A stretch of 63,384 nucleotides of DNA, counting the filler, from Reclinomonas americana ATCC 50394 (lineage: Eukaryota), in assembly GCA_048213135.1 (NCBI GenBank). It is 9 parts of 4 records of this genome, joined end to end, with 100 filler letters (N's around TTAATTAATTAA, not from the genome) between each part and the next. Parts side by side here need not be neighbours in the genome. Positions count along the whole stretch, not along the records: positions 31,993 to 38,477 come from PS015242.1; positions 38,578 to 45,011 come from PS015242.1; 7 more parts are not named here. One strand, written 5' to 3'. Both the position numbers and the translations under genes were made by a program. The notes beneath the pieces are model-generated. The model had not been told where the DNA came from, ran no database searches, and was given only the letters and a program-made list of their open reading frames with translations. This document shows, in pieces, positions 32,864 to 42,326 of the stretch (position 1 is its first letter; every line of letters begins with the position of its first letter).

Positions 32864-35764
32864 TCAAAGTTCCATCGTGAACTGCCCACACGCCTCCCTC
32901 AGTGCACGCATGACATCCAGCACCTCCTGCGAGGATGGCCTGTCAGGGCGCATCGTCATACATCGCATGCCGAGTTCAAACATTGGTTCGGCGATGCGTG
33001 GCGTCCACTCTGCTCCTCCATCCACCAGTTCCATGGGGCGTAGTGAGGCGGCACCGGAACGGTCCCAGGCCACGGACCAATCAACGACGCTGGAGACGGG
33101 CTTGCCAGTGACCAGCTGCACCAGCACAATGCCCATGCTGTACACGTCGTGCTCTGGGTGCGGGCGACGCACGCGCATCGCCATTGGGTCCATGTAGTCC
33201 AGCGTGCCGGCGGCGCTTGTCGTCTGTGAAACAAGAGAGAAGGTGAGAGGGCGTGGAAAGAGAGAGAGAAGGACGGAATGGAAACACACCTTGCCATCTG
33301 CAATCGACCGCGCAATGCCAAAGTCACCGAGACATGGCTCCAGTCGGTGATCGAGGAGCACATTGGAGGGCTTGATGTCGCGGTGCACCACCTCATTCTG
33401 CGCGCGAGGGAGGTGAGTGAGGCAAGGAACAAGGCAAGAAAACACGACTGAAGGGCATGTGGAGAACACATAATGTTGGCAGAGACAGAGTAACAAAAGA
33501 GTAACAAGGAGAAAAGAAAGAGAAGAGGCACACACAAAGAGCGAGTGTGAGGAGTGACCAAGAGGGAGAATGAGAGAGAAAAGAGTGCGGGGTGGAGTAC
33601 ACGAGAGACAGAGAGAAATGACACAAAAAGAGTGACAAGGAGAGAAGAAAAAAGAGGCACGCACAAAGAGCGAGTGTGAGGAGTGATGAGCATGAGAAAC
33701 TGGGAAATACGAGATGAAGTGGCAGAGCGAAGAAGAGAAAAGTGGAGAACGCAAAGATAGAGCAAGGGCGACGGAGAGGGTGAAGGGGATGGAGAATTGC
33801 ATCCACATATCACCAACCTTGTGCAAGAACACCACAGCCTCGGCCAATCCGAGACCAATTTGTACACGCTGCACGACCGTGAGTGGTGCACGACCGGCGC
33901 GTGGGATAAGCAATAGATCCTCCAGATTGGGAATTCTGTGTGTTATCACAGTGAGACAATGATGGAGAGGAAAGAGAGAGATGAACACGTACTGAAGGGC
34001 CTTGTACACGAGACAGCGTGCCTTGTCGTCGCCCACCGAGAAGCCGACAAGAGGCACAATGCGACGGTCGCGCAGGCGACCGAGGGTGGCGACCTGCGAC
34101 GATGGAGAAGGAGGATGAGGAGAGAGAGAGAGAAAAAACAGGAGAGGGAGAGACAGACCTCACTCTCAAACGACTCCATCGTCCACGGCGCATCGGGGTC
34201 GAGCACCTTGATGGCCACGTACATCTCGCGAAGGAGGGTAATGAACACGGCACCCTGACCACCCTCGCCAACCTTGAGGCGGGGAGAGAATGAGTCGGTG
34301 GCGTGCACAATTTCAAGCCATTCGAAGCGCTGCACGGCGGTGTCGACTGCGGGGAGTGATGAGAGGTGAGAAATGAGTGAGAGTGACGGACGTTGAACAC
34401 CGATATGAAGAAAGAAAACGAGGATGAGAGACAGACCTTGAGTGAGGAGAAGATCCTGTCGCAGCTGGGAGACGAGTTGATTGCTATCTTGCAGCTGCGT
34501 TGCGAGGTCGTCCTTCTCGCGCAGAGCCGCAGTCAGCTGAGCCTGCAGTTGGCCATGAGCTCGATGCAACTCCGTCACTGTCAGTTGCAATTGCGCGATT
34601 TGTTGTTGTCCGTCAGCGTGCGCTCGCTGCCATTCAACGACCACTTGCTGCAGTTCCGTGTTCTTCTGTTGCTCCCCGTCCATCCCTCGTTCAAGCACTG
34701 CGTTGGCTTGTTGCAGCTGAGCGACAATACCTTCGTGCTCTCGCCGCTGTCGGTCCCACTCTCGCTGTTGCTGATCTCGCTCCTGCTGAGCTGTGACAAG
34801 ATCACGCTGGAGTTGTGCGAGGAGTGCGTCCTTTTCAGCGAGCTGGCGTGCGACGGTGGGATCATCAACAACCGACTGCAATTTACGAGAGTGCGAGGGA
34901 GACACGGAACGGATGTGAGAAGTGAGGCTCACGAGCAGCAAGAAGCAGAGAGTGGCAGCACTCCGTCTCACCTGGCGTGCTGACACTGCATCATATTCGC
35001 CAGGAACGACACACACAAGGACAAACACAGAAGGTGGAGCGTGAGCACGAACACATCATGCCAACAGACATAATAGAGGTCATATACCTGCAGGAGGCGG
35101 GGATCGCAGCTGCTGTTGTTGCTGTTGGCGTGGTGGTGCTGGCTGTGCAGCGAGGAGGTCGAGCAACTCGGCCACTTGCTGCTTGCCTCGTTCGCGTGCC
35201 CACTGAGCTGCCGTCTTGCCCTCCTTGTTGACCATGGGAATGAGGTCGGGGAAGCGAGTGGCGAGGAGTCGCACAATGGCCTCGTGGCCTTGAGCGGCAG
35301 CATAATGCAGTGCCGTGGATCTTGGATATTCGGCACGGTCATTGGTGACCGCCCGCACCATCTCCGGCGGACATCGTCGCTCATCGGCCTGCAACCACTC
35401 CACCGCTTCCTGTTCCCCATTGGCGACAGCCGACATCAGTGGCGTGTAGCCAATGTCGTTGACCAGTTGTGCGAGTTGTGACCCGACACTACTCTCCTCC
35501 CACAAATACTCCAACACAGAGAGATGACCAGTGTTTGCGGCGAGGTGAAATGCCGAGCTGCCACCAGGACTCATCTCCTCTCTCTTCAGCAGCGTCTGTG
35601 CGCCCTCACGCGCCACCAACTCGCGCAGTGCCTTCACATCGCCTTCCTTGCCCATCTCCCATGCTTTCTTCCGACGAGCACTGCCACCAAAGAGGCAAAA
35701 GCAGAAGCGCGAGTGAGAGTGAGAGTGAGAGAATGCCACCTGACAACATCACAGCACACCTCAT
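32864..35764 (-). CDS. Ankyrin-repeat / coiled-coil / IRAK-Pelle(RLK)-type Ser/Thr kinase, copy A
   Basis: Inferred 5-nt first coding exon ATGAG|GT. Ankyrin repeats (SAFHLAANTGH, TPLMSAVANG, TALHYAAAQGH). Q/E/L heptad coiled coil. RFEWLEIVHATDSFSPRLKVGEGGQGAVF (RLK/Pelle hallmark), VAIK, HRDIKPSN, DFGIAR, GTLDYMDP, DVYSMG. Stop at 32864. Confidence 0.9.
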
Positions 35765-36314
35765 TTTCTTTGATCCCGAGGCGGAAGGGAACGAAACTCT
35801 CTCTCTCTCTTCCCCTCTTTTCTTCACACACGCTCTGCTTTTCCCCCGACTCTTGTCCTCCTCCTGTCGGAACGGACGTGATCGCATTGTCAACGTCGTG
35901 ACGAGGAGCAAAGTGCGTGGAGTGCAGAGGGCCTTCAGCACACGGCTCAAGATCGCAGCCGCGCTCTCTGACATGGGCTTGCGCCAGCAACAAGTAGTTA
36001 CACGAAATCACTTGGCAGCGCGACAACAACAACATCACAAATCCAAGTATCAATTGCAACACAGCTGCATGATGATCACCATATGCATCAGAGGTGAGCA
36101 CCAGAAACTCAGAGTATAGATGAGGGATCTCATCCTGGCGACAGGAGACTCTTGTATGACAGAAAGGAACCGTAGGTGCATGTTCGACGATGCAGCCAGT
36201 TGTTAAATACTTTTAGCGGGTACGGCGCACGCTATTGTGCGCTTGCTTGCCGGGGATGGCCTGCGAACACAACAACACACATGAGAACATGGCAGCTCAT
36301 CGCCACCACCATCA

Positions 36315-42200: not shown

Positions 42201-42326
42201 CATGCCTTCTTTCGACGACCACTGCCAAAGAGACACACACATGCAACACAAACAAACACGCAGAAAAGTGTCAGAAAGCAAGAGTAGGCCACCTGACAAC
42301 AACAACAACAAAAAAACACACCTCAT
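39231..42326 (-). CDS. Ankyrin-repeat / coiled-coil / IRAK-Pelle(RLK)-type kinase, copy B
   Basis: Paralog of copy A with the same exon structure: ATGAG|GT at 42326, ankyrin exon, coiled coil, RFDWPEIEHATDSFSPRLKVGEGGQG, HRDIKPSN, DFG, ending REACGQFTLEL* at 39231. Confidence 0.9.

What the first reader, a model, noticed from the sequence alone, without database searches (positions are those of the whole stretch)
32864..42326. Ankyrin-coiled-coil-IRAK/Pelle kinase pair diverging specifically on the ankyrin binding face
Seen: the kinase domains are almost identical, but the ankyrin repeats differ at hairpin/helix-1 positions: SPGGSSAFHLAANTGH vs NGYGSSVFYCAAWKGH; NDIGYTPLMSAVANGE vs TGDGYTPLMTAAYNGH; RAEYPRSTALHYAAAQG vs SAVTPQSTALDYAAAND; KTAAQWARERG vs QTAADRARDNG. 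Established: these are the target-contact positions of ankyrin repeats (those randomised in DARPins), and the RFxxxEIxxATxxFS..KVGEGG motif marks RLK/Pelle kinases. Inference: cytosolic receptor kinases with variable sensors, oligomerised by the coiled coil. I do not recognise this as a named family.
Basis: partly seen in the sequence, partly recalled or inferred. Interest (0 to 1): 0.75.

Follow-up and report, generated by a model that had tools for sequence, protein, structure and literature searches.

The report
Ankyrin–coiled-coil–RLK/Pelle kinase paralog pair
Two intact, intron-containing genes of an unidentified eukaryote each encode a soluble kinase of the plant-receptor-kinase/IRAK superfamily with a dimerising coiled coil and an ankyrin domain whose predicted binding face changes faster than silent sites, which suggests, but does not prove, a family of variable intracellular sensors.

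Summary
Two minus-strand genes (A 32864-35655, 631 aa; B 39231-42196, 652 aa; 8 exons each, all introns GT-AG) encode four ankyrin repeats, a poly-Q/Pro linker, a ~140-residue heptad coiled coil and a complete RD kinase.

- **Divergence by domain:** kinase 93.8% identical (dN/dS 0.10), coiled coil 0.22, ankyrin 74.9% identical (0.67).
- **Where the ankyrin changes fall:** 13 of 24 DARPin-type sites differ, against 31 of 151 other sites (p=0.001). dN there is 0.57, against dS 0.24-0.31 and intron divergence 0.20.
- **Third member:** an EST-derived protein varies at the same sites.
- **Kinase class:** it carries the N-terminal helix/TxxF hallmark of RLK/Pelle. Its best matches are plant RLK/RLCKs and IRAK. 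In a tree of RLK-like representatives only, it groups with two U-box kinases of RLCK-IXb-like architecture, which also have a helical domain before the kinase. There is no death domain, USP, U-box, signal peptide or TM segment.

Caveats:
- The window is a concatenation of contigs, and a spacer separates the two genes.
- Only 2-3 sequences were available.
- No tree with other TKL families could be built.
- The organism is unknown.

Verdict: a new architectural variant of a known kinase superfamily. The sensor function is inferred.

The parts
32864..35655 (-). Gene A, 631 aa. Exons 35655-35088, 34985-34972, 34875-34437, 34346-34159, 34093-33993, 33935-33818, 33397-33290, 33223-32864 (stop included)
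   Evidence: Spliced by hand from frames and GT..AG sites. The CDS is 1896 nt, in frame, with no internal stop. The 14-nt second exon is inferred from phase only, with no RNA evidence.
39231..42196 (-). Gene B, 652 aa. Exons 42196-41629, 41532-41519, 41423-40922, 40830-40643, 40574-40474, 40408-40291, 39758-39651, 39590-39231
   Evidence: Exon borders transferred from A through a MAFFT alignment. All borders keep GT..AG. The CDS is 1959 nt, in frame.
35131..35655 (-). Ankyrin domain of A (residues 1-175): N-cap plus four helix-pair repeats
   Evidence: Pfam Ank_2 7.7e-21. AF2 mean pLDDT 82.6 with helix pairs 35-42/45-54, 72-78/82-89, 115-122/125-134, 149-155/159-169. The best Foldseek PDB matches listed are DARPins and other designed ankyrin-repeat proteins.
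41672..42196 (-). Ankyrin domain of B (residues 1-175)
   Evidence: Pfam Ank_2 2.5e-17. Gap-free alignment to A with 44 of 175 residues different.
34437..34875 (-). Coiled-coil exon of A (146 aa)
   Evidence: Hydrophobic periodicity peaks at 3.5 residues. Modelled as a parallel in-register homodimer, score 0.57 against 0.00 for the best of 3 controls.
40922..41423 (-). Coiled-coil exon of B (167 aa)
   Evidence: Aligns to A with a 28-residue insertion in B and a 7-residue insertion in A, both whole multiples of a heptad. dN/dS 0.22.
32864..34346 (-). Kinase of A (exons 4-8, residues ~336-631): N-terminal helix + TxxF motif, GEGGQG, VAIK, HRD, DFG, DPM in place of APE
   Evidence: Pfam Pkinase 3.1e-17. 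Motif positions. PDB matches.
39231..40830 (-). Kinase of B (exons 4-8)
   Evidence: 93.8% identical to A, dS 0.32, dN 0.031. Same catalytic motifs.
38478..38577 (.). Contig spacer (N44-TTAATTAATTAA-N44) between the two genes
   Evidence: The same spacer occurs 8 times in the window.

Best explanation
A and B are functional paralogs of a lineage-restricted family. A third member, from the same or a closely related organism, is known from an EST. They encode soluble, dimeric Ser/Thr kinases of the RLK/Pelle (IRAK/plant RLK) superfamily.

Each protein has four parts:
1. An N-terminal, DARPin-sized stack of four ankyrin repeats.
2. A short Gln/Pro-rich linker.
3. A ~140-167-residue parallel coiled coil that would hold two chains in register.
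4. A catalytically complete RD kinase with the RLK/Pelle-type N-terminal helix.

Shown:
- The architecture and intact reading frames.
- Strong purifying selection on the kinase.
- Substitutions concentrated on the ankyrin beta-turn/helix-1 face at a rate above synonymous and intron divergence.

Inferred:
- The ankyrin face binds a protein ligand that differs between paralogs.
- Ligand binding or clustering changes the geometry of the coiled-coil dimer and allows trans-autophosphorylation of the Thr/Ser-rich activation loop. This is how RD kinases of the IRAK/RLK type are generally activated.
- Whether the ligands are foreign (immune-like sensing) or endogenous (paralog-specific wiring) is open.
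For: Gene structure and integrity:
- 8 exons each, with 14 of 14 introns GT..AG at homologous sites.
- The blocks are about 84% identical at nucleotide level over exons and introns, while the flanks do not match.

Selection (own Nei-Gojobori script):
- Kinase dS 0.322, dN 0.031, ratio 0.10.
- Coiled coil ratio 0.22.
- Ankyrin dS 0.242, dN 0.161, ratio 0.67.
- dS is similar across domains, so purifying selection rather than gene conversion keeps the kinases alike.

Ankyrin face:
- 13 of 24 DARPin-type sites differ, against 31 of 151 others (p=0.00097). Against the framework inside the repeats it is 22 of 84 (p=0.011).
- At those 24 codons dN is 0.565 and the ratio 2.19. With ankyrin-wide dS the bootstrap median is 2.37 (95% 1.08-5.25). 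The rest of the domain has ratio 0.46.
- Nonsynonymous change there exceeds gene-wide synonymous change (p=0.02) and intron divergence (p-distance 0.177 over 857 sites; p=1e-4).

Third member, P0001 (EukProt EST ORF, E 1.1e-55, 74% identity, same start Met):
- 12 positions carry three different residues.
- 6 of these are among the 18 DARPin-type sites, against 6 of the 116 other sites (p=0.0014).

Coiled coil:
- 3.5-residue periodicity.
- Indels of 28 and 7 residues.
- Homodimer model score 0.57, best of 3 controls 0.00.
- The mark was reached by 21 of 30 proteins solved as pairs of one chain and by 0 of 23 solved as single chains.
- On eukaryotes it was reached by 17 of 29 pairs, but only 1 of the 7 with no older solved relative, and by 0 of 30 single chains.
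- The runs share at least 98% of contacts and the partner pLDDT is at least 89.

Kinase class:
- The segment before the G-loop matches 7 of 14 positions of the RLK/Pelle hallmark, with TxxF intact (PMC10916322).
- The N-lobe exon hits only IRAK1, LysM-RLK and CERK1 kinases in the PDB, plus one designed repeat protein.
- The catalytic half hits lectin-RLK, BRI1, IRAK4, SYMRK and BIK1, but also RIPK3 and PknB.
- Among 1.84 billion representatives, of the 40 of 150 best hits that I scanned, 16 carry plant RLK/RLCK accessory domains, 1 has an EF-hand and 23 are kinase only.
- Careful tree: (A,B) with U-box kinase P0148 at 97/88, and adding U-box kinase P0103 at 89/81.

Solubility:
- No hydrophobic 19-residue window outside the kinase core.
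- The EST ORF is labelled complete and starts at the same Met.
Against: - Only one gene pair with DNA and one extra protein were available, so the excess of dN rests on 24 codons (S = 14.5 synonymous sites there).
- My repeat register, especially for the long finger of repeat 3, is partly subjective.
- The DARPin position list is recalled, not read here.
- The same positions have the highest entropy in natural ankyrin repeats (PMC4308713), so relaxed constraint gives the same spatial pattern.
- Ankyrin-wide dN/dS is below 1 (0.67).
- Several hot positions (9 and 10 of the repeat) are framework-like in consensus repeats.
- The conserved Glu of the APE motif is Met in both genes, which is unusual for an active kinase.
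- The 14-nt exon and the 5' end have no RNA support.
- No ligand, expression pattern or organism is known.
- The tree contained only RLK-like representatives and was midpoint-rooted. A and B sit on a long branch (1.27 in the quick tree) with deviating composition.
- The coiled-coil sequence of A found no match in the 150 representatives, so the likeness to RLCK-IXb helices is one of layout only.
Confidence: 0.6

Rival explanations
1. Relaxed constraint, not diversifying selection. After duplication, the surface positions of the ankyrin repeats that tolerate any residue simply drifted. The domain binds a conserved partner through other residues or acts as a spacer or regulatory module, and there is no repertoire of sensors.
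For: - Ankyrin-wide dN/dS is 0.67.
- The positions concerned are the highest-entropy positions of natural repeats, which is why libraries randomise them (PMC4308713).
- Only 2-3 sequences were available.
- Inter-repeat loops and helix 2 are well conserved, as in any repeat protein.
Against: - Pure neutrality predicts dN about equal to dS. At the 24 a-priori sites dN is 0.565, against dS 0.24-0.31 and intron divergence 0.20 (p=0.006, 0.02 and 1e-4).
- 13 differing codons carry 22.8 nonsynonymous changes.
- Half of the sites with three different residues among three sequences lie in that small set.
Confidence: 0.27
2. The variable ankyrin face serves paralog-specific endogenous wiring. Each paralog docks a different cellular substrate or scaffold, as in ILK, TNNI3K or RIPK4-type ankyrin kinases. 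Divergence followed subfunctionalisation and is not an arms race with foreign ligands.
For: - Ankyrin-plus-kinase fusions used for endogenous signalling are common (my recall).
- Oomycete TKLs with N-terminal ankyrin repeats are described (PMC3019232).
- Nothing in the window links the genes to defence.
Against: - A short burst after duplication can also give dN above dS, so the data do not separate this reading from the sensor reading. It is a sub-case of the best explanation rather than a contradiction.
- ILK, TNNI3K and RIPK4 were not among the 60 best PDB matches.
Confidence: 0.3
3. The kinase is a TKL-group kinase outside RLK/Pelle (for example RIPK-like or lineage-specific) that resembles RLKs by convergence.
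For: - RIPK3 and bacterial PknB score as high as RLKs and IRAK4 with the catalytic half (42-44 bits).
- No tree with other TKL families was possible.
- The branch is long and the composition deviates.
Against: - The N-terminal helix + TxxF extension is present. It is described as a hallmark of RLK/Pelle.
- The N-lobe exon matches only IRAK1, LysM-RLK and CERK1 kinases in the PDB.
- The best single-domain match is a USP-helix-kinase-U-box protein, 141.8 bits against 116.4 for the next, with 51% identity over the N-lobe exon.
- No RAF, MLK, LRRK, TGF-beta-receptor or LIMK chain is among the 60 best PDB matches.
Confidence: 0.08
4. One or both copies are pseudogenes or assembly duplicates (haplotigs).
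For: - The assembly is fragmented, with many gaps.
- The EST-derived relative ends in an out-of-frame tail.
Against: - Both reading frames are intact over 8 exons with conserved splice sites.
- Kinase dN/dS is 0.10 at dS 0.32.
- The flanks of the two copies do not match, and divergence is 16%.
Confidence: 0.03

Closest known systems
Plant PUB-VI / RLCK-IXb kinases (USP + long alpha-helical domain + RLCK kinase + U-box; e.g. Arabidopsis PUB33)
   Same: - A long helical, probably dimerising segment sits directly before an RLK/Pelle kinase. PUB33 forms homomers and AlphaFold predicts a coiled-coil dimer (bioRxiv 10.64898/2026.02.10.704836, passages).
- The best single-domain match of the A kinase (P0148) has exactly this layout.
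- In the tree A and B group with the two U-box kinases (97/88 and 89/81).
- The N-lobe exon is 51% identical to P0148.
   Different: - No USP domain; ankyrin repeats take its place.
- No U-box; the protein ends about 10 residues after the kinase.
- The coiled-coil sequences are not detectably similar.
- That P0148 comes from a plant, and that it belongs to RLCK-IXb, is my inference from its architecture. No name was available.
Animal IRAK / Drosophila Pelle
   Same: - The same kinase superfamily hallmark: N-terminal helix and TxxF.
- IRAK1 and IRAK4 are among the best PDB matches.
- Activation by induced proximity of an RD kinase is the inferred mechanism here (my knowledge of IRAK4).
   Different: - No death domain (Pfam).
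- Oligomerisation would come from an intrinsic coiled coil rather than from a Myddosome-type adaptor assembly.
Other ankyrin-repeat kinases (ILK, TNNI3K, RIPK4/ANKK1, plant ILK-type Raf-like kinases, plant KEG, oomycete TKL with 15 ankyrin repeats)
   Same: Ankyrin repeats fused to a TKL-group kinase. KEG is described as E3 + kinase + ankyrin, and PITG_06288 as having 15 N-terminal ankyrin repeats.
   Different: - Those belong to other kinase families, or to singletons with other layouts (family assignments partly from my recall).
- None of ILK, TNNI3K or RIPK4 is among the 60 best PDB matches.
- None is described in the passages read here with a coiled coil between the domains, or with fast change on the ankyrin face. 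I searched the literature only.
Repeat-based immune receptors with hypervariable binding faces (fungal NLRs with ANK/TPR/WD repeats, DARPin-like paratopes)
   Same: A conserved repeat framework with change concentrated at the beta-turn/helix-1 positions that form the concave binding surface (for the surface; fungal NLR parallel from my recall).
   Different: - No NACHT or NB-ARC domain; the output module is a kinase.
- Only 2-3 members have been seen.

Membership tests
RLK/Pelle (IRAK) kinase superfamily | N-terminal extension of the kinase core: amphipathic helix plus ST motif TxxF (consensus FSYEELEKAT[D/N]NF[S/D], PMC10916322) | tested here: met
   A reads FEWLEIVHATDSFS and B reads FDWPEIEHATDSFS directly before the G-loop. 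A matches 7 of 14 consensus positions and TxxF is intact. The definition comes from passages read.
RLK/Pelle (IRAK) kinase superfamily | Closest sequence relatives are RLK/RLCK/IRAK kinases | tested here: met
   PDB: the N-lobe exon hits only IRAK1, LysM-RLK and CERK1 kinases. The catalytic half hits lectin-RLK, BRI1, IRAK4, SYMRK and BIK1, but RIPK3 and PknB score equally high. Of the 40 of 150 best representatives that I scanned, 16 have plant RLK/RLCK accessory domains and none has a domain of another TKL family.
RLK/Pelle (IRAK) kinase superfamily | Monophyly with RLK/Pelle against other TKL families in a kinase phylogeny | tested here: inconclusive
   The tree of 56 rows holds only A, B and 54 RLK-like representatives (96 of 150 were dropped for lack of a domain match spanning at least 240 of the 296 query positions). 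A and B nest with the U-box kinases. No RAF, MLK, RIPK or LRRK references could be brought in.
RLK/Pelle (IRAK) kinase superfamily | Catalytically complete Ser/Thr kinase core (G-loop, VAIK Lys, HRD, DFG) | tested here: met
   GEGGQG, VAIK, HRD and DFG are present in both genes. The APE Glu is replaced by Met.
IRAK/Pelle in the narrow sense | N-terminal death domain | tested here: not met
   Pfam finds only ankyrin families in exon 1 and kinase families downstream.
Plant PUB-VI / RLCK-IXb | USP domain at the N-terminus | tested here: not met
   The N-terminus is ankyrin. The USP-like N-terminus of P0148 found no other match among the 150 representatives.
Plant PUB-VI / RLCK-IXb | Long alpha-helical (coiled-coil) domain directly before the kinase | tested here: met
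   Heptad periodicity and a modelled parallel dimer. The likeness is of layout only, with no sequence match to the representatives.
Plant PUB-VI / RLCK-IXb | C-terminal U-box | tested here: not met
   The reading frame stops about 10 residues after the last kinase subdomain in both genes.
Plant PUB-VI / RLCK-IXb | Kinase groups with U-box kinases | tested here: met
   (A,B)+P0148 at 97/88, and adding P0103 at 89/81. Only two U-box kinases were in the set, and the branch is long.
Ankyrin repeat domain | 33-residue helix-loop-helix repeats that stack into an L-shaped solenoid | tested here: met
   Pfam Ank_2, Ank, Ank_4. AF2 pLDDT 82.6 with four helix pairs. Foldseek top matches are DARPins and other designed ankyrin-repeat proteins, TM up to 0.83 normalised to the target.

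The most novel reading that the evidence does not exclude
A unicellular or early-branching eukaryote keeps a multigene repertoire of cytosolic sensor-kinases. A DARPin-like ankyrin paratope under diversifying selection is wired, through a constitutive coiled-coil dimer, straight to a kinase of the RLK/Pelle/IRAK lineage. That is the same kinase lineage that plants and animals use for innate immunity. This would be a one-chain intracellular pattern or effector receptor that needs no NLR, no death-domain adaptor and no membrane receptor. It would suggest that coupling variable repeat sensors to this kinase lineage is older or more widespread than the plant and animal systems.
Probability: 0.2. 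Interest if true: 0.72.

Novelty: new variant of a known kind. Interest (0 to 1): 0.45.

Why it matters
RLK/Pelle kinases are the central immune and developmental receptor kinases of plants, and the IRAK/Pelle kinases play that role in animal Toll signalling. Outside these groups they are little described.

A soluble member whose recognition domain is an ankyrin stack evolving faster than neutral on its binding face would be a new way of coupling a variable sensor to this kinase lineage. It would also give a compact system for studying induced-proximity activation: one chain, with an intrinsic dimeriser.

If the divergence is only relaxed constraint, the find is an ordinary lineage-specific domain shuffle.

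Tried and rejected
- **Whole genome:** none is held for this window, so paralogs could not be collected. tblastn of protein A against the window finds only A and B.
- **Homolog search with kinase exon 8, longer proteins:** 431 candidates, none at E<=1e-5. No full-length close relative is in that collection.
- **Homolog search with ankyrin exon 1, near lengths:** 3 hits, of which only P0001 is a relative. The other two are generic ankyrin proteins at 30-35% identity.
- **Third homolog search, spent on an S9-peptidase exon to get a taxon:** mostly unnamed metagenome entries; the named hits listed were S9 peptidases labelled as bacterial metagenome bins, plus one EukProt and one MMETSP transcript. 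No taxon information.
- **Sequencing runs:** none was listed, and no RNA holder was listed.
- **Earlier findings of the scan:** nothing by place, sequence or words.
- **The listing of cluster members:** answered that the database is switched off, so the representatives have no names.
- **P0004, the top hit (E 7e-77):** an artefact for my purpose. It is a protein with 15 tandem copies of an RLK catalytic-loop segment, so the ranking is inflated by multi-kinase proteins. I re-ranked by best single domain.
- **Ankyrin and coiled-coil parts of A against the 150 representatives:** no match at E<=10.
- **Upstream coding exon or signal peptide:** I found no splice-phase-compatible exon by eye. A conserved out-of-frame upstream ATG exists (see noticed in passing).
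- **Papers PMC3415837, PMC2675737 and PMC4657737 (RLK/Pelle evolution):** not held. What is known about RLK/Pelle outside plants and animals is therefore taken only from passages. No supplementary file was opened: only list supplementary items (a preprint, among them a figure with RLCK-IXb trees); those trees may bear on subfamily assignment.
- **Literature on the architecture:** searches gave no paper that describes an ankyrin / coiled-coil / RLK-Pelle kinase.
- **Pfam on the ORFs between A and B:** nothing at E<=0.05.

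
Full report
**What the window is**

The 63,384-base window is not one continuous sequence. It holds eight identical spacers (44 N, TTAATTAATTAA, 44 N), so it is a chain of short contigs.

- Gene A lies on piece 31993-38477 and gene B on piece 38578-45011.
- The pieces seem to be in scaffold order. An NPC1-like gene on the minus strand has its sterol-sensing domain at 49195-46416 (Pfam).
- Its C-terminal membrane helices are at 43632-42907. 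They match human NPC1 residues 1158-1256 at E 2.4e-21. The gene therefore crosses the spacer at 45012-45111.
- So A and B are probably about 6.5 kb apart on the same strand. Between them lie a gap of unknown size and an unexplained stretch at 36285-38476, whose long ORFs have no Pfam match; whether it codes for anything was not shown.
- No whole genome is held and no sequencing run was listed.

**The two genes**

blastn aligns 32847-35686 with 39214-42227 in three pieces of 84.8, 83.5 and 84.6% identity. The flanks do not align.

I spliced gene A by frame and GT..AG sites into 8 exons (1896 nt, 631 aa). I then transferred the borders to B through an alignment (1959 nt, 652 aa). All 14 introns keep GT..AG.

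- The second exon is only 14 nt and is inferred from phase alone.
- Exon identity is 84.3% for the ankyrin exon, 68.5% for the coiled-coil exon (indel columns counted), and 88-95% for the five kinase exons.
- Introns are 68-90% identical. Pooled, the p-distance is 0.177 over 857 aligned sites.
- tblastn finds no further copy in the window.

**Domains**

*Ankyrin domain (residues 1-175)*
- Pfam Ank_2 scores 7.7e-21 in A and 2.5e-17 in B.
- An AlphaFold2 model built from a three-sequence alignment has mean pLDDT 82.6. It shows an N-terminal cap and four helix pairs.
- The best Foldseek matches listed in the PDB are DARPins and other designed ankyrin-repeat proteins.

*Linker and coiled coil*
- A Gln/Pro-rich linker follows, predicted to be disordered.
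- The next exon has hydrophobic periodicity at 3.5 residues.
- It differs between A and B by indels of 28 and 7 residues, both whole heptads.
- Two copies are modelled as a parallel in-register dimer: score 0.57 in three runs, best of 3 controls 0.00.
- The mark was reached by 21 of 30 proteins solved as pairs of one chain and by 0 of 23 solved as single chains.
- On eukaryotes it was reached by 17 of 29 pairs, but only 1 of the 7 without an older solved relative, and by 0 of 30 single chains.
- The runs share at least 98% of contacts and the partner pLDDT is at least 89.
- This supports dimerisation but does not show it.

*Kinase*
- It has GEGGQG, VAIK, HRD and DFG.
- DPM stands where most kinases have APE.
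- No 19-residue window outside the kinase core is hydrophobic enough for a membrane helix.

**Third family member**

The ankyrin exon of A finds an EST-derived EukProt ORF, P0001: E 1.1e-55, 74% identity, 154 aa.

- It is labelled complete and starts at the same methionine, which supports my start codon and shows transcription of a family member.
- Its last ~20 residues look out of frame, so I compared only residues 1-134.
- Whether it comes from the same organism is not known.

**Selection** (own Nei-Gojobori script)

| Region | dS | dN | dN/dS |
|---|---|---|---|
| Kinase | 0.322 | 0.031 | 0.10 |
| Coiled coil | 0.459 | 0.102 | 0.22 |
| Ankyrin | 0.242 | 0.161 | 0.67 |

Synonymous divergence is alike across domains. 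The kinases are therefore kept similar by purifying selection, not by conversion.

Within the ankyrin domain 44 of 175 residues differ.
- I used the six positions per repeat that DARPin libraries randomise (2, 3, 5, 13, 14, 33). This list is recalled. A related library randomises 2, 3, 5, 10, 13 and 33 on the beta-turn and helix 1 (PMC4308713, passages).
- By that definition, 13 of 24 sites differ against 31 of 151 others (p=0.00097). Against the framework positions inside the repeats it is 22 of 84 (p=0.011).
- By segments of the model, 28 of 76 loop+helix-1 residues differ, against 11 of 71 in helix 2/loops and 5 of 28 in the cap.
- At the 24 codons dN is 0.565 and dN/dS is 2.19. With ankyrin-wide dS the bootstrap median is 2.37 (95% 1.08-5.25). 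The rest of the domain has 0.46.
- Nonsynonymous change at these sites exceeds ankyrin-wide synonymous change (p=0.006), gene-wide synonymous change (p=0.02) and intron divergence (p=1e-4).
- With the EST protein, 12 positions carry three different residues. Six of them are among the 18 DARPin-type sites and six among the 116 others (p=0.0014).

Limits of this analysis:
- It rests on one DNA pair and few synonymous sites in the small class.
- The repeat register is partly subjective, above all in repeat 3.
- These positions are also the naturally most variable ones in ankyrin repeats.
- An extended post-hoc set of 41 sites gives only 0.92.

**Kinase class**

- The 14 residues before the G-loop match 7 of 14 positions of the RLK/Pelle N-terminal element, and its TxxF motif is intact. 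A survey of 510,233 RLKs calls this helix plus ST motif a hallmark of the superfamily, human IRAK1/3/4 included (PMC10916322, passages).
- In the PDB the N-lobe exon matches only IRAK1, LysM-type receptor kinases and CERK1, besides a designed repeat protein.
- The C-lobe exon matches a plant LRR kinase, BIK1, SYMRK, IRAK4 and RIPK3.
- The catalytic half matches a lectin RLK, BRI1, IRAK4/1, SYMRK, BIK1, SOBIR1 and BAK1. RIPK3 and bacterial PknB score at the same level. No RAF, MLK, LRRK, TGF-beta-receptor, LIMK, ILK or TNNI3K chain is in the best 60.

An exhaustive HMMER search of 1.84 billion representatives gave 41,295 hits at E<=1e-3 and none close.
- The query was exon 7, the in-frame intron and exon 8: 177 aa.
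- The top hit is a protein with 15 repeats of a catalytic-loop segment.
- Many other hits have several kinase domains, so I re-scored all 150 with the whole spliced kinase.
- Best is P0148 at 141.8 bits, with the next at 116.4.
- Pfam on the 40 best gave: U-box 2, malectin 5, legume lectin 4, DUF26 2, S-locus 1, WAK 2, EF-hand 1, kinase only 23.
- P0148 has a USP-like N-terminus, a helical segment, a kinase and a U-box. It is 51% identical to the N-lobe exon.
- That layout is the one described for plant PUB-VI/RLCK-IXb. Its member PUB33 homomerises and is predicted to form a coiled-coil dimer (bioRxiv 10.64898/2026.02.10.704836, passages).

I built a careful tree (LG+G4) of A, B and the 54 representatives with a domain match spanning at least 240 of the 296 query positions. 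The other 96 of 150 were left out.
- It joins A and B with P0148 at 97/88.
- It adds the other U-box kinase, P0103, at 89/81.
- The quick tree had 93 for the first and left P0103 unresolved.
- The tree holds no other TKL family and is midpoint-rooted. A and B sit on a long branch with deviating composition.

**Reading**

A and B are functional paralogs that encode soluble ankyrin / coiled-coil / RLK-Pelle kinases.

I infer a dimer held by the coiled coil, a ligand-binding ankyrin face that differs between paralogs, and activation by trans-autophosphorylation of the RD kinase. It still rests on very few sequences.

The family is not IRAK/Pelle in the narrow sense, because it has no death domain. 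It is not RLCK-IXb by architecture either, because it has no USP and no U-box. It shares with RLCK-IXb the helix-plus-kinase layout and the nearest kinase relatives.

My literature searches found no description of this architecture. Three key reviews were not held.

I rate it a new variant of a known kind, of moderate interest.

Noticed in passing
window 31893-31992, 38478-38577, 45012-45111, 50528-50627, 54028-54127, 56506-56605, 57957-58056, 61874-61973: Eight identical spacers (N44-TTAATTAATTAA-N44) show that the window is a chain of contigs. Other N runs (e.g. 10824-11185, 20540-21094, 24400-25214) are ordinary gaps, several of them flanked by GA/CT or CA microsatellites.
   Followed up: partly
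window 26165-31892, + strand: A tandem array of WD40 genes. Three intron-less ORFs (27323-28465, 28780-29850, 30117-31301) each carry 5 to 7 matched WD40 stretches and are 71-79% identical to each other at DNA level. The start of a further copy (31603-31881, 89.6% identical to 30184-30462) is cut by the spacer. This is a second fast-duplicating repeat-protein family next to the kinase genes.
   Followed up: no
window 42907-43632 and 46416-49195, - strand: An NPC1-like sterol transporter gene is split by the spacer at 45012-45111. The C-terminal helices match human NPC1 1158-1256 (E 2.4e-21), and the sterol-sensing domain lies on the next piece.
   Followed up: yes
window 35762-35764 (gene A) and about 42300 (gene B), - strand: Both genes keep an upstream ATG in the same sequence context about 105 nt before the main start codon. 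It opens a hydrophobic, out-of-frame reading frame that overlaps the main ATG. It could be an overlapping uORF. I found no splice phase that would join it to the ankyrin frame.
   Followed up: partly
gene A residue ~524-526 and gene B ~545-547 (exon 8 of each): The Glu of the kinase APE motif is Met (DPM) in both paralogs, while all catalytic residues are kept.
   Followed up: no
window 2817-3341 and 8006-8917, - strand; 16581-17453, - strand; 23080-23826, - strand: Exons of an ABC transporter (ABC2_membrane, ABC_tran), an S9 peptidase and a CSN8/PSMD8-like protein. In the listing for the S9 peptidase exon, most hits are unnamed metagenome entries and the named ones are S9 peptidases labelled as bacterial metagenome bins, plus one EukProt and one MMETSP transcript.
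   Followed up: partly
protein P0004 (representative library): A 1069-aa predicted protein with 15 near-identical tandem copies of an RLK catalytic-loop segment. It is probably a mis-assembled or mis-predicted gene, and it inflates whole-protein scores in kinase searches.
   Followed up: no
window 36285-38476, - strand: Long ORFs between genes A and B (36503-37738, 37377-38291, 38057-38476) have no Pfam match at E<=0.05.
   Followed up: partly
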